64,000 nucleotides of DNA, taken from IMG/VR virus record IMGVR_UViG_3300032307_000764, positions 160,001-224,000 of that record, one strand, 5' to 3'. The stretch is from a virus. Lineage: Duplodnaviria; Caudoviricetes. The notes beneath the pieces were generated by a model. It searched no databases. It saw only the letters and a program-made list of their open reading frames with translations, and had not been told where the DNA came from. Of the stretch, positions 1-61,494 are shown piece after piece. A program made the translations under genes and the position numbers. How positions within the stretch are numbered: the first letter of the stretch is position 1; every line of letters starts with the position of its first letter.

Positions 1-90
1 AGCATTGGGATATTTAGCTTTTAACTCCTCTAATCTATCCTCTCCACTATGGGAGAATTGCTCGAATAATTTGATGTGATCTAAACTCAT
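1..90 (-). CDS. Partial ORF running off the left edge; N-terminal HIKLFEQF-tag protein
   Basis: Manual translation MSLDHIKLFEQFSHSGEDRLEELKAKYPNA; late-type GATATATAG box upstream on the minus strand (108-116). Confidence 0.75.
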   Translation of the reverse strand, partial: MSLDHIKLFEQFSHSGEDRLEELKAKYPNA

Positions 91-118
91 TTCGTCCTTT
101 ATTTACTCTATATATCAA

Positions 119-1030
119 TGCCCCGATACCCCGAGGCGAACACCTATAAACTCGCCCCGATATCCCAAAGATTTCGCCCCGTTTCTTGAAAAATATCCAA
201 TTCGCCCCGCATACCACACCAAACAAACAACTAAGCGCGGTTATAGAAATCTCCACCTAAAACTCCCGATTTTTCCACTAATCAATCCCGAAAAATCTAC
301 CCTAAAATTGGGGGGACAAAACCAAGAAAAATCCCCAAAAAAGGCCTCGCTCTTTAATACTCCTAACTATATAGTAAAGCACATCAACATATAGTATAGA
401 CACATACATAGTACACACATCACTATAGTATAAGAGAACACACATGTAATACCCATCAATATCCAAGAATACATCAAAACATATAAAAAACTAAGGAACA
501 CATATAAAACCCCTATATAGATACCTACACATATACACATCCCTATACTACAGACAACACACATCCCTACTATATAGAAGAACACTATACTATAGAGACA
601 AGGGCAAGCTATTATACCATCCTCCTAACCCATCTGAACCCATCCTAAATAAGCCCCAGAAAATAGTGGGGAAAAATGGAAAAAAATGGAGACTTGTGGA
701 GATCCCTGGTAACTGTAGAAAATACCACAAAACTGCACAAGGTTAAACCCACTTTCTACGTGTGTCCCCGAGAGGGCCCTCCCCGGGACCCCTTGCGTGC
801 CTACGCGGGCGATTTCTGGGATTATCTTAGAGATCTTTGGGGAATGTCCGAAGGAATTTTACGGAACTCCGAGATGTCTCGGGAATTCCCCGGTAGTCTG
901 GGATTGGTCTGGGATTGATCTGGGAGTTTCTTGGATTTTCTTGGTTTGGACCTGTTGGCTGAGGTGCCCCCGCTGGGATTATCTTGGAGACTTCCCGAAT
1001 AGATTTTCTTAGATAGACTTGGATCCTTTT
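119..1030. repeat. Left non-coding repeat block (island boundary)
   Basis: TCGCCCCG x3 (152,174,202), inverted CGAGGCGAA (132), CCCTAAAATTGGGGGG (300), CA/TA-rich tract 361-600 with CTATATAG x3, CTGGGA at 898/909/920, CTGGGATTATCTT at 816 and 973; only spurious low-complexity ORFs. Confidence 0.7.
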
Positions 1031-1189
1031 GGAAGCCCCGAAAAGATTATAAAAAGTTAAGAAAAGATTTTTATATTCAGGAAAGATTTCTTATATTAAC
1101 CTTATATAAAGGATATAAAAGATTTCTTAAATGCTATAGTTATTTCTAGAAATCATTTTTTATTAAGACATAGAGTTTCTACATTTGCA

Positions 1190-1579
1190 ATGTTAAATTT
1201 AAAAACAATTACGAAAGAGGATATGATTACATCTAACAACGGGTCCGCTTGGACTAAGTCTGACCGTAAGACTTTAAAGACAATGGTTAAAGAAGGAAAG
1301 GCTATTAAGGATATCGCTGCTGAGCTTGGACGCACCCCGGCTGCTGTGATTTATCAGAAGAGTCAGATGGGATTAACTAAGGTGACCAAGTCAACAAAGG
1401 TACCTAAGGTTAAGAATAAGAACGGGAAGTTGGTTATCCCAGCAGCTAAGACTAAGGATACAGTTCCCACAGTAACAACACGAGACAAAGCTAAGGAGAT
1501 GACTAGCGCTGCCCGTCAGATAGCGAGAGCTAATGGTAAGCGTATCACGATGGCTATGTTCTTTGTAGAGGATTTGTAA
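1190..1579 (+). CDS. Myb/SANT-like (GcrA-like) HTH DNA-binding protein
   Basis: WTKSDRKTLKTMVKEGKAIKDIAAELGRTPAAV motif; start may be ATG 1223. Confidence 0.65.
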   Translation: MLNLKTITKEDMITSNNGSAWTKSDRKTLKTMVKEGKAIKDIAAELGRTPAAVIYQKSQMGLTKVTKSTKVPKVKNKNGKLVIPAAKTKDTVPTVTTRDKAKEMTSAARQIARANGKRITMAMFFVEDL

Positions 1580-1599
1580 ACAATTAAAATCTAAATAGA

Positions 1600-2250
1600 A
1601 TGCCAGCACAAATTAAAAGAGCGGTTATGTCTGCCGCAATCAAAGACTATCTCAAGAACAATAAGACCTTGAGAGAGGTTGCTCAGTCACATGGAATGAA
1701 CATGGAGACTTTGCGTAAAGCATTAGGTAGTCGAGTTCGTCCTAGAGGTACACGTTACCTTGCTGATGGATCAGTGAAGACTCCAGGTGTTAAGAATGGT
1801 CGTAAGATCCGTACATCTAAGGCATCTGAGGCAACCCCACGTAGTAACAAACGTTGGACGGCAACTGAAGACGAGATGCTAAGAGATGCAGTGTTAACAG
1901 GTATGACTGTGGGAGAGACCGTAGATCTACTTGGACGTACAGCAGTATCGATCTACTGTCGTAAGTGTTATCTTTTGGACAATGGATACATTCCAGATCC
2001 AGAGACTAGATTCGCTTTACCTAAAGGGATCAAAAGAAATCGTAAGGTAGAAAATGCTACCATTGAAAGAATCGTTGAGATCGGCGAGTCAAGAGAGGAA
2101 GAAGAAAAAGTTCCTTCGGCTCCAGTGACTCAAACAACAACTATTAACTCTATCGAGCTTGAGGATCTTGCTAAGCTTGTTAAGTCGTATGGAGTTAACA
2201 TCACCGTGTCTGTGACTTCGTCTGGTACTGAAGTTAAGATGCACAGTTAA
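1600..2250 (+). CDS. Two-HTH DNA-binding protein (N-terminal HTH plus Myb-like repeat)
   Basis: KTLREVAQSHGMNMETLRKAL and RWTATEDEMLRDAVLTGMTVGETVDLLGRT. Confidence 0.65.
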   Translation: MPAQIKRAVMSAAIKDYLKNNKTLREVAQSHGMNMETLRKALGSRVRPRGTRYLADGSVKTPGVKNGRKIRTSKASEATPRSNKRWTATEDEMLRDAVLTGMTVGETVDLLGRTAVSIYCRKCYLLDNGYIPDPETRFALPKGIKRNRKVENATIERIVEIGESREEEEKVPSAPVTQTTTINSIELEDLAKLVKSYGVNITVSVTSSGTEVKMHS

Positions 2251-2371
2251 AAATCAGTTCTGCTTCTGATTTTTTGTTAGACGTGAAAGGGCTAGTTCTT
2301 AGGAGCTGGCCCTTTTTTATATAGGGGGCTCCGGCAGGACCCCTTGCGAATGCGCGTATGCGTGAGGGATC

Positions 2372-2785
2372 TTAGTTGATCTGACCGATGTACATGGTTA
2401 CTTTCCAGAATTCTGGATCCATTGTGTGGTTCATATAGATCTCTATTGACTGTAGGCTTAGAGGAAATTCCCCTATTTCATATTGAATTACGTCAAAAGA
2501 GGTTGATCCTTCTGGTACTTCTATTGATGTAGTGACGTAGTCTCCTGTCTCTTCGTCTTCAGTCTCAACGTCGAAGTACATTTCTTTGATCTTAGCGCCA
2601 TCTAATTCAATTCCCCATGACTTATAGGTTAAGTCTAGCGTCCATGTAACGCGTCCTTCTTGTACTGAGCAGTACTTTATCTCTGATGGTTCATCGTATA
2701 GATTGACTTCCACTTGGTTGCGACCAATCTTGTCGGTGAACTCATTTGGATTTTCTTGGAAATTTTCGAATAGTCTTAGCTTCAT
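2372..2785 (-). CDS. Hypothetical protein with N-terminal MKLRLFENFQE tag
   Basis: 137-aa ORF; GATAAATA late-type box upstream (2838-2845, minus); the only minus-strand gene inside the island. Confidence 0.75.
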   Translation of the reverse strand: MKLRLFENFQENPNEFTDKIGRNQVEVNLYDEPSEIKYCSVQEGRVTWTLDLTYKSWGIELDGAKIKEMYFDVETEDEETGDYVTTSIEVPEGSTSFDVIQYEIGEFPLSLQSIEIYMNHTMDPEFWKVTMYIGQIN

Positions 2786-2884
2786 GGCGATTTTTATTGG
2801 AAGGAACCCCCGCAGAGGTATCCGTTTTTTGTTCTTTTATTTATCCTCAAAATTTTTTTATTCTTTTAAGATGGTGTATATTTG

Positions 2885-2978
2885 CGGTGTAAATTAACTA
2901 CTCAGAATTTACGCTCATATATTTAGATTTTAATTGTCAAAAAAAACCAGATTCAACAGAGTCTGGTTTTTTTGTGTG
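2885..2978 (+). ncRNA. Candidate small RNA (promoter to terminator, no ORF)
   Basis: TATATTTG box 2877-2884, hairpin GTAAATT/AATTTAC 2889-2912, terminator 2941-2973, no ATG in between. Confidence 0.35.
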
Positions 2979-3033
2979 CGAAAGTTGACCGAAATGTGTC
3001 CGAAAGTTGTCCGATACATGTCCGATACACATC
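2979..3033 (+). repeat. Five 11-nt tandem repeats
   Basis: CGA at 2979, 2990, 3001, 3012, 3023. Confidence 0.8.
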
Positions 3034-3140
3034 GTGGGGGAACCTCCGAATTTCCCTAGCCCCTAGGGAAAAATCGGAAGCATTTAGTGAATCATTTTTT
3101 TGTTTTAGAAAAAACTATTACATTTGAGAAAACTGAAAAC

Positions 3141-3395
3141 ATGTACGTAGTCATTAGATCAAACCCAGACGGAGATAGCTATTACATTACATCTTCATTA
3201 GATAACGCCCGTGCTTCTTTTGAAAAAGAACGAAAGATTGTTAAGGAGAGTATTATTGATAGTGAAGAGAGTGTTGCTTTGCTGAGTGTTAAAGAAGACG
3301 AAGACTTTAGTCGAGGTGCTTGGGGTACTTGGTACGGGTGTGAGGTCATCGAAGAATTTGGTGTGACTCCTGATGAATCATATTTTCCTTTGTAG
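3141..3395 (+). CDS. Hypothetical early protein
   Basis: ATG 3141 downstream of TACATTTG promoter; the longer track start overlaps the promoter. Confidence 0.7.
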   Translation: MYVVIRSNPDGDSYYITSSLDNARASFEKERKIVKESIIDSEESVALLSVKEDEDFSRGAWGTWYGCEVIEEFGVTPDESYFPL

Positions 3396-3433
3396 AAAAT
3401 TCCATATATTTGTCTTAACTAAATAAAACCATT

Positions 3434-3796
3434 ATGGTAACGAAGGTAAAGAAAGATCAATTGGGGCTTTATGTAATTGCTGGAGGGTACATTACAAGAC
3501 CATTTTGGGGTACCTGTTTTAACGAGGGTGATGAGGTAAAGACCCATCATTTCGGCGGATCGACTCGTGCAGGTGTAACAGTCACCGACAAAAAAGAAAC
3601 CCATAACTTTAAAAGAGATGGTCAATATGAGTACTGGTGCACAACAGGACTCTGTTCAACCAAATACAAGAGGGGCGAATATACTCTGGAAGAAATTGAA
3701 AAGCAAACTGAGTGGTACAGTAAAGATATGATTCACGTTGCGGATCGTTTGACCGAAGCCAATCGCGAATTTTCAAAAACACTTACCCAGTCCTAA
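3434..3796 (+). CDS. Hypothetical early protein
   Basis: 120-aa ORF with its own promoter. Confidence 0.75.
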   Translation: MVTKVKKDQLGLYVIAGGYITRPFWGTCFNEGDEVKTHHFGGSTRAGVTVTDKKETHNFKRDGQYEYWCTTGLCSTKYKRGEYTLEEIEKQTEWYSKDMIHVADRLTEANREFSKTLTQS

Positions 3797-3863
3797 CATA
3801 AAAATCATTTTTTTCTTTGTAGAAAATTCCATATATTTGTATCAACCAATTAAATAAAAGGAG

Positions 3864-4739
3864 ATGCCAAATCACGTAACGAACTTATTGACTATTACCG
3901 CAGCTACTGAAGAGAGAGTAGATGAGATTAAATCTTTGATAAGTGGTAAATTTGACGATGGAGAAACAATGCACATTGATTTCAATAAGATTATCCCTCG
4001 TCCGGATTCATTGAATATCACTAGTGGAAGTACTACTGATAATGGTATTGCCATCTTGCAATATCGTGCAGGTGACGAAACAGCCATCCGAGGAATTATG
4101 CAATATCAATGGGGTAAGGGTTTTGATACTCCGGAGGATTTGATTAACTATATTCTCGAAAAAGGATCTGCTAATTTGGAAGAAGCTCAAAAAGCTTTGG
4201 ATAATGAAAAGCTTTATGGTCATCGGGATTGGTACGGATGGTCTAGTGATAAATGGGGTACAAAATGGAACGCATATTCCCAGGAATTGAATGAGTCCGG
4301 TGTTATCAAATTTGAAACTGCTTGGAGTACACCTGAACCAGTTATCTGTGCTCTTAGCCGAATGTTTCCCGATGCCCAATTCGATTTGAGATATGCAGAT
4401 GAAGATTTCGGTCACAACGTTGGAGAGTACACCTATGTAGATGGTGAGATCGTAGAAGAGTATCAACCAGAGGGTGGTTCCGATGAGGCTTATGAATTGG
4501 CAGCAGACATTACTGGCTATGAAGATTACTTCACCGACCGTATTTATGACATCGAAGCTGAGAGTATCGAAGAGCTTGAGGATTACGAAAAAGCTGCTAT
4601 CAGATATGTTTATCGAAAAGAGATCCTTGATGATTTCCCTAAGGTTGTTCTAAGCTATATGGAACAGTTAGCAGTCGAAGATGAGAATTACGAATTTGCT
4701 GAAAAGATTAAGAATACTGTAGCGGTAAACGAAGAGTAA
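3864..4739 (+). CDS. DUF1281/YubB (Api92-like) ferredoxin-like domain protein
   Basis: MPNHVTN, IDFNKIIPRP, WYGWSSDKWGTKWNA, FETAWSTPEPV motifs. Confidence 0.75.
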   Translation: MPNHVTNLLTITAATEERVDEIKSLISGKFDDGETMHIDFNKIIPRPDSLNITSGSTTDNGIAILQYRAGDETAIRGIMQYQWGKGFDTPEDLINYILEKGSANLEEAQKALDNEKLYGHRDWYGWSSDKWGTKWNAYSQELNESGVIKFETAWSTPEPVICALSRMFPDAQFDLRYADEDFGHNVGEYTYVDGEIVEEYQPEGGSDEAYELAADITGYEDYFTDRIYDIEAESIEELEDYEKAAIRYVYRKEILDDFPKVVLSYMEQLAVEDENYEFAEKIKNTVAVNEE

Positions 4740-4921
4740 AAATTATCACCTCCATATATAGAAAAGGGTCTGGATTATTTTCAGACCTTTTTTGTGTGCG
4801 GAGGTTTTTTCTGCAGCCGCGGATTATTGACTGAGGAACCCCCTCGAGGGTGTTAAAAACTATTTGGACGGAAATTCAGGAATCATTTTTATATATAGAA
4901 AATTCTATTTATATTTGTACT

Positions 4922-5080
4922 ATGAAATCTTTTAAGAAAATTCTGTTTAATTATAGCAAGGCTCGTGAACGTGAGCGTGCTAAGGAAGCGGGTTTTTTCG
5001 ATGGAAGGTTTAAGACAAAAGTTGTCACACCCAAGACCAAGAAGCCACCTAAGCACAAACATAAATTGTTTCAAGAATAA
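4922..5080 (+). CDS. Small basic hypothetical protein
   Basis: ATG 4922 just after TATATTTG; Lys/Arg-rich. Confidence 0.65.
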   Translation: MKSFKKILFNYSKARERERAKEAGFFDGRFKTKVVTPKTKKPPKHKHKLFQE

Positions 5081-5586
5081 TGGCTAAGATTAAAGTAGAT
5101 CAGAATAGGTTGCAGAGCAATCTGAAGAGAGGAGAGATTAAGTTCTCTTATGAGAAGGTTGACGGATCGATTAGAGAAGCTAGGGGTACAACACTTTTAG
5201 ATTTGATACCCGCATCACAGCATCCTAAGGATGGAGAGAAGGCTCACAAAGGTACAGCATTCTTTGATTTGGATAATTTGGCTTGGAGATCAATTTCTGA
5301 AAAGACCGAGTGTGTTGATATAGATTCAGATTCACTAGTTGAAATTTACGGGTCACCTATCATAGAGGAGGAGGAGATTAGCTTTATGTTATTCAAGGAA
5401 GGAACACTAGGTGATGTGTGGTTGAATAAATTGATAGAGGTTATCATGGATGCTACACCTCATCGTGCAACGGAGCTTGGTCACGGAGAGTTTAAAAAGC
5501 TAGTCCGAGTTTGTAGAAGGTACATTGAGGACGAGAGCTATGTTAATAGCCTTGAGGATCGATGGAATAAATTTGTAACCAATTAA
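5080..5586 (+). CDS. WYL_2/DUF2693-like SH3 beta-barrel protein
   Basis: LKRGEIKFSYEKVDGSIREARGT...FFDLDNLAWRS. Confidence 0.7.
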   Translation: MAKIKVDQNRLQSNLKRGEIKFSYEKVDGSIREARGTTLLDLIPASQHPKDGEKAHKGTAFFDLDNLAWRSISEKTECVDIDSDSLVEIYGSPIIEEEEISFMLFKEGTLGDVWLNKLIEVIMDATPHRATELGHGEFKKLVRVCRRYIEDESYVNSLEDRWNKFVTN

Positions 5587-5596
5587 ACTTAAATAT

Positions 5597-6052
5597 ATGC
5601 AAGAAGATTCTAAAATTAGTATGTCCAGAAAAAGACGGATAGTACGATGGAGAAGATTCACCTCGTGGATGTACAGAGGAATGGAGAAGGGATTTTCACG
5701 ACAGGATGAATTATCAGATTCACAGAAAGCTGGAGTCAAGATTTTTGAAAGAGCTTTAACTGTTAAGGATGCTGATTTGTTATTAGCTCCATTGAGCGAT
5801 ACTATCTACATAGAGGTTGATGACATTTTCCTTATTTTGGATGGTAGACAATTAAAGATTATCAATGGAAAATATCAGTACGATATTTACCTTCCAGAAA
5901 AGGTTAATCAGAAGCTTTACTCTTCCTTTAAGAAAGTGTTAGAGAAAAGAAGAAAACAAATGGAGTACAAAATCATCACTAAGACTAACCGTAGTCTAAA
6001 TAACATCCTCGATGATTTAGCAGAAATCAGAGATCGCAAGAAAGAGGAGTAA
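5597..6052 (+). CDS. Hypothetical protein
   Basis: 151-aa ORF with AACCAATTAAAC leader. Confidence 0.75.
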   Translation: MQEDSKISMSRKRRIVRWRRFTSWMYRGMEKGFSRQDELSDSQKAGVKIFERALTVKDADLLLAPLSDTIYIEVDDIFLILDGRQLKIINGKYQYDIYLPEKVNQKLYSSFKKVLEKRRKQMEYKIITKTNRSLNNILDDLAEIRDRKKEE

Positions 6053-6233
6053 GAAACCAAAAACCCAAAGGAGCCTAAGAGAAATCTTAGGCTTTTTTGT
6101 GTGCGGATGTTTTTGTAGCAGCAGCGGATTATTGCCTGAGGAACCCCCGATGAACATCCCGTCAGACGGGATTTACAAATCATTTTTTATTTTGTAGAAA
6201 ATTCTATATATTAGCTAAGTAAACCAATTAGAC

Positions 6234-6668
6234 ATGGATAAGAACATTTTCAAAGTAAAGGACAATCTCTATGTTGAGGGTAACAAGGTTATCAGTTATG
6301 TAACTGTTGTTGCTATTATAAAGGGTGATAGCATAATAGAGCTTGGTAAATTTTCAAGGACCACGACTAAGCATATCTTTATGCTTTCACAATTGATGAG
6401 CAAGAAGATAGTTCACACTACAAAAAAGAGGAGAGAAGATTTTGACAAGTTTAATTTGGGTGTGAAGACATCCTATGATAATTGTATCGGTCAAAAGGCT
6501 TCTCTTATGATTTTGGAGTCGCTCGGAAAAGGTATTCCTTATAATGTTACTCTTGCTACTTTGAAAGGAAAGATAGCTAAGAGGGATTGGGAATTATTAG
6601 ATAAGGAAGGCATCGATCCGGAGTTATTGAAAGGCGGGTCTTTATTAAGTCGAGTGGGAATTTATTAA
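6234..6668 (+). CDS. Hypothetical protein with C-terminal LKGGSLLSRVGIY tag
   Basis: 144-aa ORF with its own promoter. Confidence 0.75.
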   Translation: MDKNIFKVKDNLYVEGNKVISYVTVVAIIKGDSIIELGKFSRTTTKHIFMLSQLMSKKIVHTTKKRREDFDKFNLGVKTSYDNCIGQKASLMILESLGKGIPYNVTLATLKGKIAKRDWELLDKEGIDPELLKGGSLLSRVGIY

Positions 6669-6722
6669 ATCATTTTTTTGTTTGTAGAAAATTCTCTATA
6701 TTAGCTAAGTAAATCAAACGAT

Positions 6723-7016
6723 ATGGCAGACTTAAATTTTGTAGCTATAATTACAGGGCCCGCAGAATATCTCGAGGGTGGTGTAAAGGTTGAGGACTTC
6801 ACTATCACTTGGGATGAGATAGTAGAGGATTGTGATGATTTTGATGATGAAGGAAATCCAACTGAGGAAGGTGTAGTTGGAGCTATCGATTATCTCAAAG
6901 AGGAGTATGCTGCTGAGTGGTCACAGAGATGGTGTAAGGTAACTCTTCTTTCCAAAGAACAGTTCCTAGTTATTAAAAATTTTAGACCGGAAGAAAATTT
7001 GTTTATACCTAATTAA
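6723..7016 (+). CDS. Acidic hypothetical protein
   Basis: 97-aa ORF with its own promoter. Confidence 0.75.
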   Translation: MADLNFVAIITGPAEYLEGGVKVEDFTITWDEIVEDCDDFDDEGNPTEEGVVGAIDYLKEEYAAEWSQRWCKVTLLSKEQFLVIKNFRPEENLFIPN

Positions 7017-7079
7017 ATCATTTTTTTAATTGAAAAGAATTTTCTATATTAGCTAAGTAAACCAATTAAACAAAAAGAG

Positions 7080-53143: not shown

Positions 53144-53155
53144 TCTACTTTTATT

Positions 53156-54226: not shown

Positions 54227-54301
54227 GCAAATTGTTTTTATATCTTCTATATATCTGGAAATCGTTTTTTTATTTTATTCGTTTTTTCTACCTTTGTATC
54301 T

Positions 54302-54673: not shown

Positions 54674-54717
54674 GGAAATCATTTTTTTATTATTTGAGAA
54701 ATTTCTAAATTTGTGAT

Positions 54718-54927
54718 ATGGAATTAAACGCTAAACAGAAAAGAGCAATCGAAGAGCATTACGATTCGATGGATCCTCGAAACATTGAATTTGAAGATGC
54801 AGTAGAGTTAGTAACAGATCATTTGATCGACGAGAATCTTGTAGATCTTTCTGAAGACGAAGATGGAGATATGCACGAAGATCTTTACAATTCAGTTTGG
54901 GAACATTTAGAATTTTATGTGGGATGA
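54718..54927 (+). CDS. Small acidic protein
   Basis: Early-type promoter at ~54677. Confidence 0.7.
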   Translation: MELNAKQKRAIEEHYDSMDPRNIEFEDAVELVTDHLIDENLVDLSEDEDGDMHEDLYNSVWEHLEFYVG

Positions 54928-55235
54928 TGGAAAAAGAAAAATTAATCAATTATTTGAAAACTGAGGGTTACTACGAAATAAGAGAGATCCCAGGAAAAGG
55001 AATCTGTGGATTGAATCAATTTGCATTCACTACTGGATTAATGATAGGAATGACAGAGATAGGATATTACGGAAGATATTGTTATTCCTTAGAATCTGAA
55101 GCTCTTGAAGCATTGAATACATGGAACGGTGAAGGAGATCCTCCAGGACCGTGGATTAAATATAAAGGATCACCTTACGAAAGAAGTAATCCTTTAATGG
55201 AGAACGGATGTTTAAATTGTAAAGCAAATGGATAA
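54924..55235 (+). CDS. Conserved phage hypothetical protein
   Basis: GRYCY...ALEALNTWNGEGDPPGPWIKYKG. Confidence 0.7.
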   Translation: MMEKEKLINYLKTEGYYEIREIPGKGICGLNQFAFTTGLMIGMTEIGYYGRYCYSLESEALEALNTWNGEGDPPGPWIKYKGSPYERSNPLMENGCLNCKANG

Positions 55236-55827
55236 TATACTTATACCAGAGGATCTAAAGGCTATAATTTCTAAGGATAGTGACATATTCGAATACCTTA
55301 GATCCCCTAGGCATTCCATAGTCGAGAATTGGGAGAAGAGAGAAGATTTTAGAAGCGGTACATCATGGCACATACCGACTAAAGAACTTGTAGCTTCCAT
55401 GGTTGAATATTCACCTCTGGTTTCTGTAGGATCTGGATTTGCTTATACTGAAAGCTTAGCTATTAAAGAAGGAGCAGACATTATAGCTACTGACTTATCA
55501 CCAGATTCAAATAACCATTGGTGTAGGGACGGAAAATTCTATTGTGATGTTGAAAAATTAAAAGCTGACGAAGCTGTTAAAAAATATAAAGACCGTAACG
55601 TTTTTATGGCTTGGCCTCCTTATGATAATCCTATGGCAGCAGAAGTTGTCGAAGCTATGGAGGTAGGAAAATATCTAGTATTTGTTGGAGAGTATCATGG
55701 AGGATGTACTGGAGATGACAATTTCTTTGAGATCCTTTATGCTAATTTCGAAGAGGTTTCTGATCTATCAATACCAAACTGGCCGGGTATCAGAGATTCA
55801 TGTATAATCTATAAAAAAATAAAATAA
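55228..55827 (+). CDS. Class I SAM-methyltransferase-like protein
   Basis: VSVGSGFAY; FMAWPPYDNPM; FVGEYHGGCTGDD. Confidence 0.7.
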   Translation: MDNILIPEDLKAIISKDSDIFEYLRSPRHSIVENWEKREDFRSGTSWHIPTKELVASMVEYSPLVSVGSGFAYTESLAIKEGADIIATDLSPDSNNHWCRDGKFYCDVEKLKADEAVKKYKDRNVFMAWPPYDNPMAAEVVEAMEVGKYLVFVGEYHGGCTGDDNFFEILYANFEEVSDLSIPNWPGIRDSCIIYKKIK

Positions 55828-56186
55828 TGGCTCTAAATTACGATCTAAGAGAAATTAATGGGTATAAAAGAAGAGTATTCTCCACTGTTAAATCAGAATC
55901 AGGAGAAATCCAATACAAAATGAAATCTGTTCCCCAGACTATCGTGTTCCTTACCATGACAGTAGGGATGAGAGAAATAACAGAAAAAAACTGGGAGAGA
56001 TTTTACAATAGGGCTCATCTTATTGAGACTATACATGGAAGTTTCTACTTCGTAACAAAAAGAGGAAAATTGGTTCCGAAATATATTTCTAAGGATGATA
56101 TCAAATCTATGATAGGTCTAAAAACCAATGCTTCCGAATTAACTACGAAGCAATTTATGAAAAGATTCGATTCACACCAGATATAA
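55827..56186 (+). CDS. Hypothetical protein
   Basis: 119 aa, coupled to the upstream gene. Confidence 0.7.
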   Translation: MALNYDLREINGYKRRVFSTVKSESGEIQYKMKSVPQTIVFLTMTVGMREITEKNWERFYNRAHLIETIHGSFYFVTKRGKLVPKYISKDDIKSMIGLKTNASELTTKQFMKRFDSHQI

Positions 56187-56188
56187 TT

Positions 56189-56542
56189 ATGCGTAACGAG
56201 AAGGGACAATTTATTAAAGGTCTATCTCCCTGGAATAAGGGTAAAAAAGGATTTAATCCTAGCCCTGATACACAATTTACATCTGGTGATCACCACACGG
56301 GGGAAACACACAACAGCTGGAAAGGTGGTGTTCAGGTAATGAAAAAAGACTGTGTACATCTATGGGATGGTACAGGTAAAAGAGCAAGAAGACCAAGGGT
56401 TGTTTATGAAATGTATCATGGCCCAATCCCTAAGGGATATGTAATAATCCACAAAGACGGAGATCATCATAACGATCACCCTTCAAATTTAATGGCTATT
56501 TCTAGATCTGAAAATCTTAAAAGAAACAGGAAAAGAATATAG
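56189..56542 (+). CDS. HNH endonuclease (HNH_3-like) with NUMOD-type N-terminus
   Basis: GQFIKG..PWNKG; VIIHKDGDHHNDHPSNL. Confidence 0.8.
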   Translation: MRNEKGQFIKGLSPWNKGKKGFNPSPDTQFTSGDHHTGETHNSWKGGVQVMKKDCVHLWDGTGKRARRPRVVYEMYHGPIPKGYVIIHKDGDHHNDHPSNLMAISRSENLKRNRKRI

Positions 56543-56605
56543 AATCATTTTTTTATGTAATTAGATTTTTCTAAATTTGCTCACTAACATTTTAAAATCT
56601 ATCAA

Positions 56606-57466
56606 ATGAGGCAATTAAAGATCACTGCATCCATAACCAGTAGAAGCGATTATTCACTCGAAAAGTATCTTAGCGATATTTCTAAAGAGGAAATGATTAA
56701 TTCTGAAGAGGAGGTTAGGCTAGCAAGAAAGATTAGAGAAGGTGATCAGGCTGCACTCGATAGATTAGTTAGAGCGAATCTAAGATTCGTGGTATCCGTT
56801 TCTAAGCAGTACCAAAATCAAGGTCTACCTCTTACAGATCTGATAAGTGAGGGAAATGTAGGATTAATTAAGGCCGCAAAAAAGTTTGATGAAACGCGAG
56901 GATTCAAATTTATTTCCTATGCCGTATGGTGGATTAGACAGTCTATACTTGAAGCATTAGCTGAAAAAGCCAGAATAGTTAGATTGCCACTAAATCAGGT
57001 AGGGGTTTTAAGTAAAATTAACAAGAGCATAACTAAGCTTGAGCAGGATCTAGAAAGACTACCATCACCCGATGAAATAGCCGAAGTCCTAGATCTTTCT
57101 GCTCATAAGGTGGAAGAATCTTTAAAGTCATACAGTAAGCACGTATCTATTGATGCTCCTTTAACCAATGATTCAGACTCTGGAAATTTAGTTGACGTAA
57201 TGTCCAATGATGGTCCGGATTCAGATTACCTTTCAATAGAAAGATCTCTAAAAATAGAGATTGATAGAAGCTTAGATACTCTAAGTCAAAAGGAAAGGGA
57301 GGTATTAAAGTTATTTTACGGAATAGATGCAACCAATCCTATATCTTTAGATGAGATAGGTACTAAACTTAGTATTTCTAGAGAGCGGGTTAGACAGATA
57401 CGTGAAAAATCAATTAAAAAATTAAGAGCAAATACTAGAAGCGGATTACTGAAATCTTACCTGTAA
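56606..57466 (+). CDS. rpoD: RNA polymerase sigma-70 factor, Bacteroidota RpoD/SigA type
   Basis: MRQLKIT..IT.R...LEKYL; NLRFVVSVSKQY; DETRGFKFISYAVWWIRQSI; SRERVRQIRE; no region 1.1. Confidence 0.95.
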   Translation: MRQLKITASITSRSDYSLEKYLSDISKEEMINSEEEVRLARKIREGDQAALDRLVRANLRFVVSVSKQYQNQGLPLTDLISEGNVGLIKAAKKFDETRGFKFISYAVWWIRQSILEALAEKARIVRLPLNQVGVLSKINKSITKLEQDLERLPSPDEIAEVLDLSAHKVEESLKSYSKHVSIDAPLTNDSDSGNLVDVMSNDGPDSDYLSIERSLKIEIDRSLDTLSQKEREVLKLFYGIDATNPISLDEIGTKLSISRERVRQIREKSIKKLRANTRSGLLKSYL

Positions 57467-57479
57467 AGGTAAATACAGT

Positions 57480-57689
57480 ATGAAGCATTTTCTTAAGTAT
57501 CTTATTGTATGGATAAGTCAAAACTTATCCATTCCTTTTTGGATTGTTGGTCATATACATCTAAGTGTTAATGTTTATGAGGATCTATACGAAATTCTAG
57601 CATCTCTTGGAATGAACATAATAGTTGCAACAGGATTTATCATAGACTATATAGACAATAAAAAGTCCACCAAAAAAGATGATATATAG
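57480..57689 (+). CDS. Small membrane protein
   Basis: Two hydrophobic segments. Confidence 0.65.
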   Translation: MKHFLKYLIVWISQNLSIPFWIVGHIHLSVNVYEDLYEILASLGMNIIVATGFIIDYIDNKKSTKKDDI

Positions 57690-57711
57690 CTTATATTATT
57701 AAAATAGAATT

Positions 57712-59343
57712 ATGAGCAATATCGAATCTTTCCAGTCTTTTCACCTTAGAAATATGGGAATAGACTATGAGGATCTTTTTTCCTTACAAGAAAATAAATC
57801 GCAAGCAAAGTATTCATTTGAGGGATTTAAAAACTATTTTTCAGGACTTCTTTTAGAAAGTGACGGATACATTGACGAATCTCTATTAGAGGATTCATTT
57901 GCCTTCTATGAATACACTATGCTGTACGAAGCAAAGTCTCATTGGTTCGAATCTGAATCAATGAATAAAGCAATGTATCTGGACTGTGATTCACATATGA
58001 TGATCTTTACAGAGGGAGAGGGATTCTTAATCGAAAAAAGGACTTTTACTAAAATTAATGAGTGGCTTACTATGGATGATATAGGTAAAGCATGGAACTC
58101 ATTAAAAAGTAAAACTAAATCAGCAGTAGATAATATTAAATCAGTTGCAGGAAAAACTTGGGATTCTATATCTTATGGAGCTAAAAAAGCTTGGGAATTT
58201 GTAAAAATGTGTGCTAATGCAGTTGCAGATTTTGTTAAAGGTATGACATTCTTGGAATGGGCAGCTTTAGGTTTAAGCTTACTTTCTGCAGTTCTTGGTA
58301 TAGCTGGAGCAGCAACTACTGCTGTTGGAGTTGGTCCTGCACTTACTGCGATAGGTGGTGTTTGTCAAGGTATTTCTGGTGGAATTCACATTTACGAAGG
58401 GGTTCATAAGTATAATGGTGCTATTAAAATATTTGGTAAATCTGGGATTACTCCACAGGCAAAATTATATTCTGCAATATCCATAGCATTGCCTGAGGTT
58501 CTTACAGGAGGGGTTTTGATAGCATTAGGAATTAATGACGTTGTACAATCAGCTACTGGACTTGTAGATCCTTCATCAGGTTCAAGAAGTGTTGCTACTA
58601 GCACATCATCTAAAATAACCCTTAAAAGCTTTATAAAAAGTATATCTAAACCTGGACATGCTATAGAACATGCAATCCACGGATTAGCTGAAGGAGCACT
58701 AAAGAAAGCTGGTATAGAGGTTTCGAAGGTAGCGGGAGAAGGAGTAGCTAGGGTTGCAACAACAGTTTTTGCTACTATAGCTCCTGCAATAATGAGTAAA
58801 TTATTTGGATGGCTTTTCGAGTTTATGTTAAAAGCAGGTAAAACTGTAACCAAAGGATTCGATTACCTAATTAATATTCCTTCTAAAATATCTTCTGCTA
58901 TAGCTAGCTTCCAAAAGAATGCAGATTCTACTTTGACTAAAATATTGTCTACAGGACTAGGAAAGATAGTTAAGCCGATGACCGATGGAGCAAGTTCAAT
59001 TATTAAAAAATATGTCCAGCCGAATGTAAATTTTGCTAAAATTTGGATTGATCTACAGATTAAAGGATATAACGAAAATAAGAAGATTCTCGAAGAATAT
59101 AAACACGAGCTTCATACAGGTATTAAGCACGAGCATAAAAAAGAGGATAAGGTTAAACCCATTTTTAAATTAGAAAAGAAAACTGACGTCCCTAAAAGTG
59201 ATGTGGATAAATTAAATAAGCTAAACGATAAATCTAAAAACCAAGACAAATCGAAGAAAGCTAAGGTAAAAGGTAAGGTAAAAGAATCTCAAGTCTGGGA
59301 AATGAAATATATAAAAGGATTCGATAACCTAAACTTTATTTAA
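57712..59343 (+). CDS. Large late protein with Gly/Ala-rich TM hairpins (candidate internal/ejection protein)
   Basis: GATATATA at 57681; ALGLSLLSAVLGIAGAATTAVGVGPALTAIGG; tag-like segments at both ends. Confidence 0.7.
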   Translation: MSNIESFQSFHLRNMGIDYEDLFSLQENKSQAKYSFEGFKNYFSGLLLESDGYIDESLLEDSFAFYEYTMLYEAKSHWFESESMNKAMYLDCDSHMMIFTEGEGFLIEKRTFTKINEWLTMDDIGKAWNSLKSKTKSAVDNIKSVAGKTWDSISYGAKKAWEFVKMCANAVADFVKGMTFLEWAALGLSLLSAVLGIAGAATTAVGVGPALTAIGGVCQGISGGIHIYEGVHKYNGAIKIFGKSGITPQAKLYSAISIALPEVLTGGVLIALGINDVVQSATGLVDPSSGSRSVATSTSSKITLKSFIKSISKPGHAIEHAIHGLAEGALKKAGIEVSKVAGEGVARVATTVFATIAPAIMSKLFGWLFEFMLKAGKTVTKGFDYLINIPSKISSAIASFQKNADSTLTKILSTGLGKIVKPMTDGASSIIKKYVQPNVNFAKIWIDLQIKGYNENKKILEEYKHELHTGIKHEHKKEDKVKPIFKLEKKTDVPKSDVDKLNKLNDKSKNQDKSKKAKVKGKVKESQVWEMKYIKGFDNLNFI

Positions 59344-59344
59344 T

Positions 59345-59554
59345 ATGATAATTTATACCTTATCAGTAATATTAGGGACTTTAATGTTCTCTATTGGTAT
59401 TATCTTTTTTATTATATCACTATTTTCCCAAAAAGTAGAAAGGCCTTTTATCTTTCTAATCGGATGTCTCTTTTGGCCTTTTAGTCTAATTATTATCTAT
59501 GTCTACATATTTGTACATAATAAGTTCTTTTCTAAAAAATCATTTTTTTCTTAA
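59345..59554 (+). CDS. Two-TM protein
   Basis: Hydrophobic; LFWPF. Confidence 0.6.
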   Translation: MIIYTLSVILGTLMFSIGIIFFIISLFSQKVERPFIFLIGCLFWPFSLIIIYVYIFVHNKFFSKKSFFS

Positions 59555-59590
59555 GAGAATATTCTATAAATTTGTATAAAATCCAAAAAA

Positions 59591-60043
59591 ATGAATAGAA
59601 GTTCAATCTTTATCATACTACCTACATTTATTACTACTATTGTTTTAATGTCGCTTAATGCTTGTAATTCCGGAACTGAAAAAAAAGTGGATAAGCCTGA
59701 GATTATAGAAGCTAGTCACTATGCCATTTATACTCTGGAAGGATGTGAATATATTTTAGTCGGAGTTGGTAATAATAGATGGGGATCACACAAAGGAAAT
59801 TGTTCCAATCCCATACACAAAGGTCAGCATCCTAGTCCTTACGAGCTAGAATCATATGACATAGAAAAATCATTATTAGATGAGGAAAAGCATTTTGACT
59901 GTTACGTAAACAGTATAGATCTGGACCCTAAAGATGGAAAAAAGTATTGGGTGGAAACCGAATGTGGTATTCTTTTTCAGAGTGACAAGCCTTATAAAGT
60001 TGGGGATGTGCTTAAAAATTTCAAGTCAGAGAAGCACAAATAA
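59591..60043 (+). CDS. Predicted lipoprotein
   Basis: Signal peptide with LNAC lipobox; early-type promoter. Confidence 0.7.
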   Translation: MNRSSIFIILPTFITTIVLMSLNACNSGTEKKVDKPEIIEASHYAIYTLEGCEYILVGVGNNRWGSHKGNCSNPIHKGQHPSPYELESYDIEKSLLDEEKHFDCYVNSIDLDPKDGKKYWVETECGILFQSDKPYKVGDVLKNFKSEKHK

Positions 60044-60057
60044 TCCATGATATATAA

Positions 60058-60672
60058 ATGGTGAAACACATAAAACTTTTTGAAAATTTCGATAATGCTT
60101 ATAAATGGCCGGAAGCTAAATTCTGGATTGATAAGCTAGAACCAGAGGAGATATGTTTTCTTGGTCTATATTCACTAGATTCTAAGAAAGAAAAATTATT
60201 CCAATCCGAATATGAAGGACCTGATGATGCAGAATCTGACGAAAATGGATCGGGTTCTTTAGAAATGTTTTTTCAATTTCCTATAGCTAAAGGACAGGGA
60301 TATTCAACGTTGTCATGCGAAATAAGTTTCAGTGGAGATTTCACAACTTTTCATCCTGGAGATTATTATACACCTCCTGAAGGCGGTGATTATATCTTGG
60401 AAAATATAGAGACAGAATCAGCATATTATCTAGACGAGTCTGAGGATAAAGAATACGATCTTTTAGAAATGGAATACAGATCTGAGTTTATTAAAAAAAC
60501 CGATCTGATTAATATGATCGAATATTTTGCATTAAACAATATAAGCTACGGCGAGGATGAAACTGATGTAAAGAAGCCAGAAATACCTCAAGGACTACTA
60601 GAAAAGTGTGAGAATATAAGAAACCAAAATCCTGATATGCTTAAGGGCCACGGATTATTAAACAGATTTTAA
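60058..60672 (+). CDS. Tag protein MVKHIKLFENF with C-terminal LKGHGLLNRF
   Basis: GATATATA at 60049. Confidence 0.8.
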   Translation: MVKHIKLFENFDNAYKWPEAKFWIDKLEPEEICFLGLYSLDSKKEKLFQSEYEGPDDAESDENGSGSLEMFFQFPIAKGQGYSTLSCEISFSGDFTTFHPGDYYTPPEGGDYILENIETESAYYLDESEDKEYDLLEMEYRSEFIKKTDLINMIEYFALNNISYGEDETDVKKPEIPQGLLEKCENIRNQNPDMLKGHGLLNRF

Positions 60673-60721
60673 ACATTTTTCCACTATCTTAAAATAAAAA
60701 TGGAACAATCCTTATTTTTTA

Positions 60722-61027
60722 GTGTATAAAAAGCTAAAAGATATTATGAGAATTTTACTATTTTTAATCTATTTGTCCATTTCAGTTTCTGCAATTTCAC
60801 AAAGCACAATGTCTGCTGGAGGTGAAAGAATTTCTTATTACACACCAAATAGAGATACTCTATGGTTAGTAAATAAGGAAATAGGTAGACTTATTGCATC
60901 CACTTGGGAAATGAGTACAGATGTAAAAGTCAAGCCAGTGATAGTATTAGTTGAAACTCTTCCTGTCAGAAATGAGGATCTTATAGAAGCAAAATATGTG
61001 AGACCAAGAAAAAGAAAGGATCAATAA
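60722..61027 (+). CDS. Secreted hypothetical protein
   Basis: Signal-like MRILLFLIYLSISVSAIS from ATG ~60746. Confidence 0.6.
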   Translation: MYKKLKDIMRILLFLIYLSISVSAISQSTMSAGGERISYYTPNRDTLWLVNKEIGRLIASTWEMSTDVKVKPVIVLVETLPVRNEDLIEAKYVRPRKRKDQ

Positions 61028-61065
61028 TTTTTATTTTAAACCCGGATATATAAAATAAAAAAAAG

Positions 61066-61494
61066 ATGAATCACATCAAACTTTTCGAACAATTCAAAAA
61101 CGGATTATTAAAAGAAAGCGTACAAGATAATATGGTATTCGATTGGCTTCCTTATGACGCTCAAATCGATAATCCTATTCAATCGTCCATGCCCGAATCT
61201 TTGTCTTATGACGATCTTATTAAATATTGCAACGAGAATGATTGCTCAGGAGCACAAGAGGCTGGTCTTTTTATAGCTCACGTTAAAAATAATGACGGAG
61301 GTTTTACTAGATATATTGCCACATCTTTAATGCCTTTGAAATTTGACATTTCTACCTTTAGTAAGGATTTTGAAATGAAAAACGAAACTAAGGATGTAGA
61401 TCAAGCGGATCTAGATCCTACTGCTTATAAAAAAGCATCATCTCTTTTAGGAAGATCTGGTATGTTTGATTTTAAACCTAAAGATTCGGAATAA
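61066..61494 (+). CDS. Tag protein MNHIKLFEQF with KKASSLLGRSGMF near the C-terminus
   Basis: GATATATA at 61045. Confidence 0.8.
   Translation: MNHIKLFEQFKNGLLKESVQDNMVFDWLPYDAQIDNPIQSSMPESLSYDDLIKYCNENDCSGAQEAGLFIAHVKNNDGGFTRYIATSLMPLKFDISTFSKDFEMKNETKDVDQADLDPTAYKKASSLLGRSGMFDFKPKDSE

What the first reader, a model, noticed from the sequence alone, without database searches (positions are those of the whole stretch)
1..61494. A capsid-targeting-like N-terminal tag on at least 14 unrelated proteins: a large injected cargo set
Seen: MSLDHIKLFEQF (1-90), MKLRLFENFQE (2785), MELLRFEDYINE, MKHVKLFEQFISSE, MKHIKTFAALNE, MKHIKLFESY, MKHIKLFESFSTE, MKKIFRYSQFINE, MILDYDKFILE, MRHIKSRSQFVNE, MKHLSLYENF, METFDKF..SLKE, MSNIESFQSF, MVKHIKLFENF, MNHIKLFEQF..LLKE. 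The bodies are unrelated, and nearly all sit right behind GATATATA. Known: T4 IPII/IPIII begin with MKTYQEFIAE, which targets proteins into the prohead and is removed by gp21 after (I/L)xE. The [FY]-x-x-[FY]-[IV]-x-E core matches here. Inference: this phage packs a broad enzyme toolkit (ART-like, kinase, Nudix-like, ferritin, membrane protein) into its head for delivery before gene expression. It is a modular promoter-plus-tag system for recruiting genes as virion cargo.
Basis: partly seen in the sequence, partly recalled or inferred. Interest (0 to 1): 0.85.

Follow-up and report, generated by a model that had tools for sequence, protein, structure and literature searches.

The report
Capsid-address tag on many phage proteins
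An uncultured 248-kb phage with a T4-type head puts the same roughly 13-residue N-terminal peptide, ending in its head protease's likely cutting site, on about 40 unrelated proteins, so they are probably loaded into the capsid and delivered with the DNA, but no particle has been examined.

Summary
About 30-44 ORFs carry the tag across the whole 248-kb phage contig.

The canonical tag is M-K-H-I-K-L-F-E-Q-F-[IVL]-[NST]-E.
- It is conserved as peptide, not as DNA.
- It occurs only at N-termini.
- The proteins behind it are unrelated.
- A hypervariable linker separates it from the folded body.

The genome encodes a T4 gp21-type (S77) prohead protease fused to a scaffold of about 13 repeats, each holding [YF]-[LI]-A-E. 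It also encodes a gp23-type capsid protein with an invariant L-N-E site.

In IMG/VR the exact 10-mer MKHIKLFEQF heads at least 98 distinct proteins in at least 46 families. The next three residues, which the search left free, are [IVL]-[NST]-E in about 85%, and conservation then collapses. The 10-mer is essentially absent from 596 Gb of cellular genomes.

A matrix trained only on this phage's tags ranks T4's own CTS proteins in the top 5 of 566 T4 N-termini.

Best reading (0.7): a T4-type capsid-targeting propeptide removed by the prohead protease. Packaging, cleavage and injection are untested. GATATATA is the general virion-gene promoter, not a cargo-specific one. This scan has noted similar tags in other phage genomes.

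The parts
1..90 (-). Tagged ORF start MSLDHIKLFEQF (88 aa; the rest lies left of the window)
   Evidence: leave-one-out score 20.1; GATATATA 18 nt upstream at window 116(-)
2375..2785 (-). Tagged ORF MKLRLFENFQE, 137 aa, no GATATATA upstream
   Evidence: leave-one-out score 10.2; no Pfam or PHROG hit
31267..31494 (+). Tagged ORF MELLRFEDYINE, 75 aa
   Evidence: leave-one-out score 13.0; GATATATA at 31244
34498..35040 (+). Tagged ORF MKHVKLFEQFISSE, 180 aa. The longest ORF starts at 34483, but the third ATG gives the canonical tag.
   Evidence: leave-one-out score 23.7; GATATATA at 34474
35206..36267 (+). Tagged ORF MKHIKTFAALNE, 353 aa; also carries the C-terminal motif GASILNRFGI; paralog of genome 156798(-)
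   Evidence: weak in the gapless matrix
36307..36903 (+). Tagged ORF MKHIKLFESY, 198 aa, second gene behind 35206; ART-like only as a lead
   Evidence: leave-one-out score 22.0; AF2 model too poor to use
38298..39116 (+). Tagged ORF MKHIKLFESFSTE, 272 aa, P-loop nucleoside/NMP-kinase-like body
   Evidence: tag residues 1-15 have pLDDT below 50 (helix 2-11), body above 90; the linker is hypervariable in orthologs
39134..39691 (-). Tagged ORF MKKIFRYSQFINE, 186 aa
   Evidence: leave-one-out score 16.2; GATATATA at 39704(-), back to back with the one at 39711(+)
39723..40163 (+). Tagged ORF MILDYDKFILE, 146 aa
   Evidence: leave-one-out score 14.0
40172..40828 (+). Tagged ORF MRHIKSRSQFVNE, 218 aa (the longest ORF starts at 40160)
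   Evidence: score 19.7; second gene behind 39723
46177..46776 (+). Tagged ORF MKHLSLYENF, 199 aa
   Evidence: leave-one-out score 15.4
53630..54226 (-). Ferritin-like protein, 198 aa, with a doubtful tag METFDKFRGKSLKE on a 48-residue extension in front of the domain
   Evidence: PF00210 E 1e-21, domain residues 49-181; tag scores -6.5; GATATATA at 54255(-)
57712..59343 (+). Weakly tagged ORF MSNIESFQSF, 543 aa, paralog of tagged genome 149631(-)
   Evidence: leave-one-out score 8.7
60058..60672 (+). Tagged ORF M(V)KHIKLFENF, 204 aa; C-terminal GHGLLNRF. A GTG start at 60061 would give the canonical MKHIKLFENF.
   Evidence: leave-one-out score 21.0
61066..61494 (+). Tagged ORF MNHIKLFEQFKNGLLKE, 142 aa
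   Evidence: leave-one-out score 26.1
30828..61052 (+). Fourteen forward GATATATA motifs (30828, 31244, 33772, 34474, 35190, 36950, 38286, 39711, 41113, 46165, 52930, 57681, 60049, 61045), each 1-23 nt before an ATG: the virion-gene promoter class
109..54255 (-). Four reverse-strand GATATATA motifs, with the G at window 116, 39704, 44314 and 54255

Best explanation
The peptide is a T4-type capsid-targeting propeptide. Proteins made from the late (GATATATA) transcripts begin with an amphipathic helix, M-K-H-I-K-L-F-E-Q-F. This helix is inferred to dock them onto the scaffold/core of the assembling prohead. Once the shell closes, the gp21-type (S77) prohead protease is inferred to cut after the Glu of [IVL]-[NST]-E at about residue 13, or after a nearby L-F-E or L-N-E in variants. 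That frees the mature protein inside the head, and it would leave with the DNA at infection, as T4 IPI/II/III and Alt do. Shown here: the tag family, its peptide-level conservation, its strict N-terminal position, its sharp boundary at the Glu, its modularity, the presence of the protease, scaffold and capsid genes with matching motifs, and the shared promoter class. Inferred: docking, cleavage, packaging and injection.
For: (1) The tag is real and N-terminal only: 29 of 36 seeds beat the 99.99th percentile of 67,885 internal windows in leave-one-out scoring. (2) Selection acts on the peptide. Codon choice inside tags equals genome usage (TTT 62 vs 65%, AAA 72 vs 70%). Only 52% of same-residue codon pairs are identical among the nine HIKLFE-type tags compared. 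Substitutions are conservative: F/Y, I/L/V, K/R. (3) Bodies are unrelated. In orthologs of window 38298 the tag is conserved, then comes a 0-25-residue hypervariable linker, then a conserved body. Some orthologs carry the other tag flavour, MRRVLNFDQYVSLNE. AF2 gives helix 2-11 with pLDDT below 50 for residues 1-15, detached from a body with pLDDT above 90. (4) The machinery is present. The S77 protease scores PF03420 E 2e-10 and phrog_207 E 2e-37. It is fused to a scaffold of 42-bp repeats, 10.7 copies by Tandem Repeats Finder and about 13-14 by eye, each with Y-[LI]-A-E; T4 gp22 has L-I-A-E, K-L-A-E and K-I-A-E. The gp23-type capsid protein scores PF07068 E 1e-38, and HSLNE|SAGAY at residue 43 is invariant in the window's phage and 24 relatives. 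(5) There is an unbiased boundary. A scan of IMG/VR for the 10-mer alone gave at least 120 stretches and 98 distinct proteins, with 46 BLAST clusters among 90. The unconstrained positions 11-13 are I/V/L in 86/98, N/S/T in 82/98 and E in 87/98. From position 14 on, no residue exceeds about 20%. All five large tag-bearing contigs checked encode an S77 protease in a 645-688-aa ORF with the same kind of scaffold repeat. (6) The tag is virus-specific: one hit in 596 Gb of cellular genomes, on a 3.9-kb, 36% GC contig of a MAG. (7) There is a link to T4. IPII/IPIII start MKTYQEFIAE and IPI starts MKTFKEF...ITE. A P7-P1 matrix from 17 tags of this phage ranks T4 gp61.1 (MKTFKEFIKE) first and IPII/IPIII fourth and fifth of 566 T4 ORF N-termini. 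(8) The tags share a promoter class with head genes and never follow the early promoter (23/47 vs 0/35). (9) The cargo fits the idea: a Tad3 anti-Thoeris domain (E 4.5e-21), CHAP peptidase, adenylate kinase, AAA+ ATPase, and an acidic gp67-like protein next to the head genes. For T4 biology, see PMC5694885 and PMC3012670.
Against: There is no proteomic, N-terminal or packaging datum for this phage or any phage carrying the tag. The nearest cultured relatives, Tenacibaculum phage PTm1 and Flavobacterium phage MaF61 (30-33% capsid identity), have the protease (shown for PTm1) but no tag family, so nothing can be transferred from them. Several good tags (36307, 46177, 60058, 57712) have no [IVL]-x-E right after F-x-x-F, so they may be cut elsewhere (L-F-E) or not at all. 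The resemblance to the T4 CTS rests on about 7 positions. No T4-type portal was found by Pfam. Forty cargo species per head is many, although SPN3US heads hold about 50 proteins (PMC7411985, abstract).
Confidence: 0.7

Rival explanations
1. The tag does target proteins to the prohead, but mainly as core or scaffold-associated assembly components. These would be degraded and expelled at maturation, or stay in the head without being delivered. In that case there is no injected effector arsenal.
For: Tagged genes sit inside the head module: 23117, 23979, the acidic gp67-like 30998(-), 31992(-) and 32464. T4 core proteins gp67 and gp68 are cut into fragments (PMC5694885).
Against: Many tagged bodies are folded enzymes or effectors: a P-loop kinase-like fold with pLDDT above 90, a Tad3 domain, CHAP, adenylate kinase and AAA+. 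These make little sense as disposable scaffold.
Confidence: 0.12
2. The peptide is a recognition handle for some other shared partner: a chaperone, a modifying enzyme as in leader-guided RiPP-like systems, a cytoplasmic protease, or another compartment. It would then have nothing to do with the capsid.
For: A similar shared leader in phage RB43 was re-read by this scan as a radical-SAM recognition site (note e1-127136). Function is untested here.
Against: The contig has no radical-SAM domain. The tag boundary is [IVL]-x-E, the same motif that repeats in the scaffold and occurs in the capsid propeptide. The tag co-occurs with an S77 protease-scaffold gene in 5 of 5 large contigs. It appears only in the promoter class shared with head genes.
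Confidence: 0.12
3. The shared N-terminus reflects a nucleic-acid element, such as the initiation region of near-leaderless late mRNAs, a downstream box, or part of the promoter.
For: ATG lies only 1-23 nt from GATATATA, so the 5' coding region is close to the transcription start.
Against: Synonymous sites are free and match genome codon usage. The distance between promoter and ATG varies, and the number of residues before the core also varies. Tags occur on operon-internal genes without the motif. Many IMG/VR copies of the identical peptide have quite different upstream DNA; only 15 of 93 have a GATATA-like motif.
Confidence: 0.03
4. The tagged genes are diverged paralogs that kept only their N-terminus.
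For: Two pairs are true paralogs: 149631(-)/217712 and 156798(-)/195206.
Against: The other roughly 40 bodies share nothing, range from 75 to 686 aa, and include different Pfam folds: ferritin, CHAP, ADK, AAA_5, Tad3, DUF2201. The same 10-mer heads at least 46 unrelated clusters in IMG/VR.
Confidence: 0.03

Closest known systems
Phage T4 capsid targeting sequence (CTS) of internal proteins IPI, IPII, IPIII and Alt, removed by gp21 (Mullaney & Black 1996; reviewed in PMC3012670 and PMC5694885)
   Same: It is a short N-terminal peptide on unrelated proteins. It has the core [FY]-x-x-F-[I]-x-E with the same spacing and ends in [LI]-x-E. The phage has an S77 protease, a gp23-type capsid and a scaffold rich in [LI]-A-E. 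The cargo includes a homolog of an anti-defence protein (Tad3 here; IPI* in T4).
   Different: The tag is three residues longer (MKHIKL.. against MKT..). P2 is mostly Asn/Ser/Thr rather than Ala/Thr. There are about 30-44 carriers per genome against about 4-5 in T4. The protease is fused to the scaffold. The host is probably Bacteroidota. Nothing has been tested at the bench.
Hypervariable internal-protein loci of T-even phages: diverse ORFs that keep only the CTS (Repoila et al. 1994, from memory; stated in PMC3012670)
   Same: A conserved leader and late expression are combined with swappable, fast-evolving bodies.
   Different: Here the carriers are spread over the whole genome rather than confined to one locus, and at least 46 families share one identical 10-mer across many uncultured phages.
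Propeptides of head and ejection proteins of giant phages phiKZ, 201phi2-1 and SPN3US, cut by a T4-related prohead protease at (S/A/G)-x-E or A-x-E (PMC5694885, PMC10052503)
   Same: These are jumbo phages with dozens of head proteins, N-terminal propeptides ending in x-E, and a proposed CTS-like targeting role.
   Different: Those propeptides are mostly 80-160 residues long and are not one shared sequence (only gp53/gp54 share 15 residues). Here the tag is one short consensus peptide.
Encapsulin cargo-loading peptides
   Same: A short portable peptide sorts unrelated cargo, often ferritin-like, into an HK97-fold shell.
   Different: Encapsulin peptides are C-terminal, bind the shell directly and are not cleaved. 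They are relevant mainly to the separate C-terminal G-x-x-[ILV]-L-x-R-[FLV]-G motif seen here. That resemblance is from memory and was not tested.

Membership tests
T4-type capsid targeting sequence / gp21-processed propeptide | Short (10-20 residue) peptide at the extreme N-terminus | tested here: met
   The tag occupies residues 1-13 (up to about 17). No comparable match occurs internally, and conservation collapses after residue 13.
T4-type capsid targeting sequence / gp21-processed propeptide | Ends in the prohead-protease motif (L/I)-x-E | tested here: met
   81 of 98 IMG/VR proteins have hydrophobic-x-E at positions 11-13, which the search left free. 17 of this genome's tags have [FY]..[FY][ILV].E. 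Some good tags lack it.
T4-type capsid targeting sequence / gp21-processed propeptide | The phage encodes a T4 gp21-type (Peptidase S77) prohead protease and a gp23-type capsid | tested here: met
   PF03420 E 2e-10, phrog_207 E 2e-37 and PF07068 E 1e-38. All 5 of 5 other large tag-bearing contigs also have S77.
T4-type capsid targeting sequence / gp21-processed propeptide | Shared by otherwise unrelated proteins | tested here: met
   BLASTP finds 2 related pairs among 44. There are 46 clusters among 90 IMG/VR carriers.
T4-type capsid targeting sequence / gp21-processed propeptide | Sequence likeness to the T4 CTS (MKT[FY][KQ]EF..) | tested here: inconclusive
   The [FY]xxF[I]xE spacing is the same. 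A matrix from this phage ranks T4 gp61.1, IPII and IPIII at positions 1, 4 and 5 of 566. Only about 7 columns are compared, and T4 IPI is not retrieved.
T4-type capsid targeting sequence / gp21-processed propeptide | Made late, together with head proteins | tested here: inconclusive
   The tagged genes share the GATATATA motif with the protease and head-module genes and never follow the early motif. No RNA data exist.
T4-type capsid targeting sequence / gp21-processed propeptide | Sufficient to load a protein into the prohead, and removed in the mature virion | not testable with these tools
   This needs virion proteomics with N-terminomics or a reporter fusion.
Leader peptide of a radical-SAM / RiPP-like modification system | A radical-SAM/SPASM enzyme encoded with the tagged genes | tested here: not met
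   PF04055 has no match in the 248-kb contig, while all 14 control genomes match.

The most novel reading that the evidence does not exclude
The 13-residue peptide MKHIKLFEQF[IVL][NST]E is a portable, lineage-wide address label. It would mark a first-strike injected proteome of 30-40 proteins per virion (over 10% of the genes), including anti-defence proteins such as a Tad3 homolog. Because it is readable from sequence alone, it would let hundreds of injected phage effectors be catalogued directly from metagenomes. The separate C-terminal G-x-x-[ILV]-L-x-R-[FLV]-G motif on a subset would be a second sorting signal.
Probability: 0.45. Interest if true: 0.85.

Novelty: new variant of a known kind. 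Interest (0 to 1): 0.7.

Why it matters
Which phage proteins enter the cell with the DNA is known for only a handful of model phages. Yet such proteins act before any phage gene is expressed, and they include anti-restriction and host-takeover factors. If this tag works like the T4 CTS, it gives a sequence-only way to list injected proteins of a large, uncultured clade of phages with T4-type heads. That clade has at least 215 related capsid genes and at least 46 tagged families in IMG/VR. The tag would also point to new anti-defence candidates, one of which already matches Tad3. It would further show that the T4 targeting and cleavage logic is ancient and can scale from about 4 to about 40 cargo species. 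The tag could be useful as a packaging handle in Bacteroidota phages.

Tried and rejected
- Megablast of window 34000-46000 against cultured phages found no match.
- tblastn of the 272-aa tagged protein against cultured phages found no match.
- Tenacibaculum phage PTm1 (whole genome scanned) and Flavobacterium phage MaF61 have no tag family, with pattern hits at control level. No proteomics can therefore be borrowed from them.
- The PTm1 GenBank annotation does not flag proteins found by mass spectrometry.
- Literature searches for the peptide strings (HIKLFE, KLFEQF, FEQFINE and others) found nothing relevant.
- The NAR 2026 paper that mentions CTS and jumbo phages concerns only T4 IPI.
- The AF2 model of window 36307-36903 (the ART-like lead) had mean pLDDT 47.7 and was not searched. 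ART-like rests only on an embedding look-alike at 0.85-0.88 and conserved H/Y/E positions.
- Pfam and PHROGs left most tagged window proteins unnamed.
- Pfam Portal_T4 had no hit.
- Radical_SAM had no hit.
- No RNA holder was listed among public runs, so promoter use could not be checked.
- My first regular expression for the early promoter was wrong and was replaced.
- The first, loosely anchored matrix was circular, so leave-one-out scoring replaced it.

Full report
**What the window is.** The window is bases 160001-224000 of a 248,191-bp IMG/VR phage contig, 34% GC and about 85% complete by CheckV. Its capsid protein is of the T4 gp23 type (PF07068, E 1e-38). The nearest deposited relatives by capsid are uncultured huge phages and Lak megaphages (39-43% identity). 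Next come Tenacibaculum phages PTm1/PTm5 and Flavobacterium phage MaF61 (30-33%). IMG/VR holds at least 215 closer relatives; the 80 kept show 66-96% capsid identity. The early genes in window 3-33 kb sit behind a TTC..A[TC]ATT[TA]G motif. From my own knowledge this looks like the Bacteroidota sigma-A -7 element TAnnTTTG, so a Bacteroidota host is likely. That is an inference.

**The observation.** Genome-wide I collected 44 candidates. I built a position matrix anchored on the second aromatic residue and scored it leave-one-out. It puts 29 of 36 seeds above the 99.99th percentile of 67,885 internal windows, and 20 above the best internal window. Within the window:
- 13 tags are solid.
- 35206 (MKHIKTFAALNE) is plausible.
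- The ferritin at 54226(-) (METFDKF..SLKE) does not score.

The bodies are unrelated: BLASTP on residues 19 to the end finds only two related pairs.

**Peptide or DNA?** The nucleotide alignment shows free synonymous variation: TTT/TTC, CAC/CAT, ATA/ATT/ATC, CTT/TTA/CTA.
- Codon usage inside tags equals the genome's (TTT 62 vs 65%, AAA 72 vs 70%, GAA 71 vs 66%).
- Only 52% of same-residue codon pairs are identical among the nine HIKLFE-type tags compared.
- Replacements are conservative (F/Y, I/L/V, K/R).
- The distance from promoter to ATG varies from 1 to 23 nt.
- Tags also sit on operon-internal genes.

So the constraint is on the peptide.

**Where the tag ends.** I scanned IMG/VR for DNA encoding only MKHIKLFEQF. 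They encode 98 distinct proteins, with 46 BLAST clusters among the 90 tagged proteins of at least 60 aa from the 80 loci then read. The search did not constrain positions 11-13, yet:
- position 11 is I/V/L in 86 of 98;
- position 12 is N/S/T in 82 of 98;
- position 13 is E in 87 of 98.

From position 14 on, no residue exceeds about 20%. Most exceptions have S-L-N-E a few residues later. This sharp edge at a Glu preceded by hydrophobic-x is what a cleavable propeptide with a T4-type site looks like. The same 10-mer occurs once in 596 Gb of cellular genomes, on a 3.9-kb, 36% GC contig of a MAG, so it is a viral signal.

**Modularity.** 85 homologs of the protein at window 38298-39116 were found; 22 spanning the range were aligned. 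They keep the tag, then have a linker of 0-25 residues with no conservation, then a well-conserved P-loop body. Three of them carry the other flavour of the tag (MRRVLNFDQYVSLNE), so the flavours are interchangeable. AlphaFold2 on this alignment gives a confident body (pLDDT above 90). The N-terminus (residues 1-15) is low-confidence (pLDDT below 50); DSSP assigns a helix at residues 2-11. The body resembles nucleoside/NMP kinases only loosely (Foldseek E 1e-4, TM 0.35-0.47).

**The machinery that would read the tag.**
- The ORF at genome 18267-20300 (677 aa) matches Peptidase_S77 (T4 gp21; E 2e-10, above cut-off) and phrog_207 'head maturation protease' (E 2e-37) in its first roughly 260 residues.
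- It continues into a scaffold-like tail with a 42-bp (14-residue) tandem repeat. Tandem Repeats Finder counts 10.7 copies, and I count about 13-14 by eye. Each copy holds [YF]-[LI]-A-E.
- T4's scaffold gp22, which gp21 cuts to pieces, has L-I-A-E, K-L-A-E and K-I-A-E (PMC5694885).
- The capsid protein that follows has HSLNE|SAGAY at residue 43, invariant in the window's phage and 24 relatives. Neighbouring head-module proteins have L-N-E or V-N-E near their N-termini.
- Five of five large IMG/VR contigs that carry the tag encode an S77 protease in a 645-688-aa ORF; the four I read have the same kind of [HY]-[VLI]-A-E repeat.
- PTm1 has the protease, but with a different repeat and no tag family.

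**Link to T4.** I read the T4 genes directly. IPII and IPIII begin MKTYQEFIAE. IPI begins MKTFKEF and has I-T-E at residue 19. gp24 begins MAKINELLRE. gp23 has F-L-T-E at residue 65. The 65-residue gp23 propeptide and the 10-20-residue CTS are described in PMC5694885. The core Y-Q-E-F-I-A-E lines up with F-E-Q-F-I-N-E. As a blind test, I trained a seven-column matrix (P7-P1) on 17 tags of this phage only. It ranks T4 gp61.1 (MKTFKEFIKE, a CTS look-alike) first and IPII/IPIII fourth and fifth among 566 T4 ORF N-termini. This supports a real family resemblance, but it rests on few columns.

**Promoter class.** GATATATA occurs 39 times forward and 17 times reverse in the genome, almost always 1-23 nt before an ATG. 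Of 47 ORFs behind it, 23 are tagged. The rest include:
- the protease, with the capsid gene co-transcribed behind it;
- other head-module genes;
- a 938-aa fibre-like protein;
- two proteins matching 'virion structural' PHROGs;
- a few enzymes.

None of the 35 ORFs behind the early motif is tagged. GATATATA is therefore the general virion-gene (late-type) promoter, not a cargo-specific module. No RNA data are available.

**What the cargo is.** Most tagged proteins are orphans. The named ones are:
- ferritin-like (window 53630-54226, doubtful tag);
- CHAP peptidase (genome 226615);
- a Tad3 'type I Thoeris inhibitor' domain (genome 151584, E 4.5e-21);
- adenylate kinase (118393, weak tag);
- AAA_5 ATPase with a DUF2201 neighbour (106796, 105005);
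- an OmpA-like domain (147545).

A tagged, strongly acidic protein beside the head genes (30998(-)) recalls T4 core protein gp67. 'ART-like' for window 36307 is only a lead; the model was too poor to use. No tagged window protein matched a Nudix family or any other family at the thresholds used, and membrane segments were not tested.

**Rivals.**
- A nucleic-acid element is excluded by the codon data.
- Paralogy is excluded by the unrelated bodies.
- A leader for a modifying enzyme, as this scan proposed for RB43 (note e1-127136), finds no radical-SAM gene here. It also would not explain the [IVL]-x-E edge that the tag shares with the scaffold and capsid.
- Two possibilities remain open. The tagged proteins may be assembly components rather than delivered effectors. 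Or the handle may bind some other partner.

**Comparison and novelty.** The closest known system is the T4 CTS and the hypervariable internal-protein genes of T-even phages (PMC3012670). Giant phages such as SPN3US and phiKZ also process many head proteins, but with long, dissimilar propeptides (PMC5694885). New here are a longer consensus tag, its scale (about 30-44 genes per genome and at least 46 families in metagenomes), the protease-scaffold fusion with repeated sites, and the probable Bacteroidota host range. I found no paper describing it. Other agents of this scan have noted similar tags in other megaphages and T4-like phages and in other windows of this genome. Those notes agree with this reading but are not independent evidence.

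**Verdict.** The capsid-targeting reading is the best-supported explanation (0.7) but remains untested. It is a new variant of a known kind.

Noticed in passing
window 6234-6668, 35206-36267, 60058-60672; genome 139943(-), 143663(-), 150910(-), 154608(-), 155716(-), 156798(-), 157718(-): A second shared peptide, G-x-x-[ILV]-L-x-R-[FLV]-G, sits at the extreme C-terminus of 10 proteins and never internally. Seven of them also carry the N-terminal tag. The one at window 6234-6668 is an early-class gene without it. The motif could be a second sorting or partner-binding signal; its resemblance to encapsulin loading peptides or clamp-binding tails is from memory only.
   Followed up: partly
window 30828-61052 and genome-wide: GATATATA lies only 1-23 nt (often 4) before the ATG, so these late-type mRNAs must be leaderless or nearly so. 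Several copies are back to back and drive divergent genes, for example window 39704(-) and 39711(+).
   Followed up: partly
window 34483 vs 34498, 40160 vs 40172, 60058 vs 60061: The tag suggests start-codon corrections. The longest ORFs add MKMLK or MIYT in front of a canonical MKH/MRH tag. At 60058, a GTG start at 60061 would give the canonical MKHIKLFENF.
   Followed up: no
genome 151584-152351 (L010:11584-12351), outside the window: A tagged protein (MKRIKDFKGFINE) carries a Pfam Tad3 'type I Thoeris inhibitor' domain (E 4.5e-21). It is an anti-defence candidate that may be delivered with the DNA.
   Followed up: partly
genome 18267-20300 (L001:1441-3360): The prohead protease is fused to a scaffold-like tail of 14-residue tandem repeats (42-bp period, 10.7 copies by Tandem Repeats Finder). 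Each repeat has [YF]-[LI]-A-E. Tag-bearing relatives have the same architecture, while PTm1 has a different repeat.
   Followed up: partly
genome 15653-18244 and 24290-24820: Two head-module proteins (863 and 176 aa) share an N-terminal G-Y-N-P-[IV]-[YF]-E-[SQ]-L motif followed by ..N-E or A-E, a possible further variant of the propeptide. The 863-aa protein has a long Gly/Ala-rich hydrophobic stretch.
   Followed up: no
T4 NC_000866 18966-19130 (L239): T4 gp61.1, a 54-aa hypothetical protein, begins MKTFKEFIKE. This is a close look-alike of the IPI/IPII/IPIII targeting sequences, and it was the top T4 hit of the matrix built from this phage.
   Followed up: no
window 3400-33000: This is a long array of mostly single-gene early cassettes, each behind a TTC..A[TC]ATT[TA]G(C/T) motif followed by ..AACCAATTAAA.. 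None of the 35 downstream ORFs carries the tag.
   Followed up: partly
window 41125-42747 (+) and 43292-44302 (-): Two GATATATA-driven, untagged proteins share the N-terminus M-[SA]-T-[ST]-R-P-F-A-Y-N and match 'virion structural protein' PHROGs. They are probably fibre or decoration proteins.
   Followed up: no
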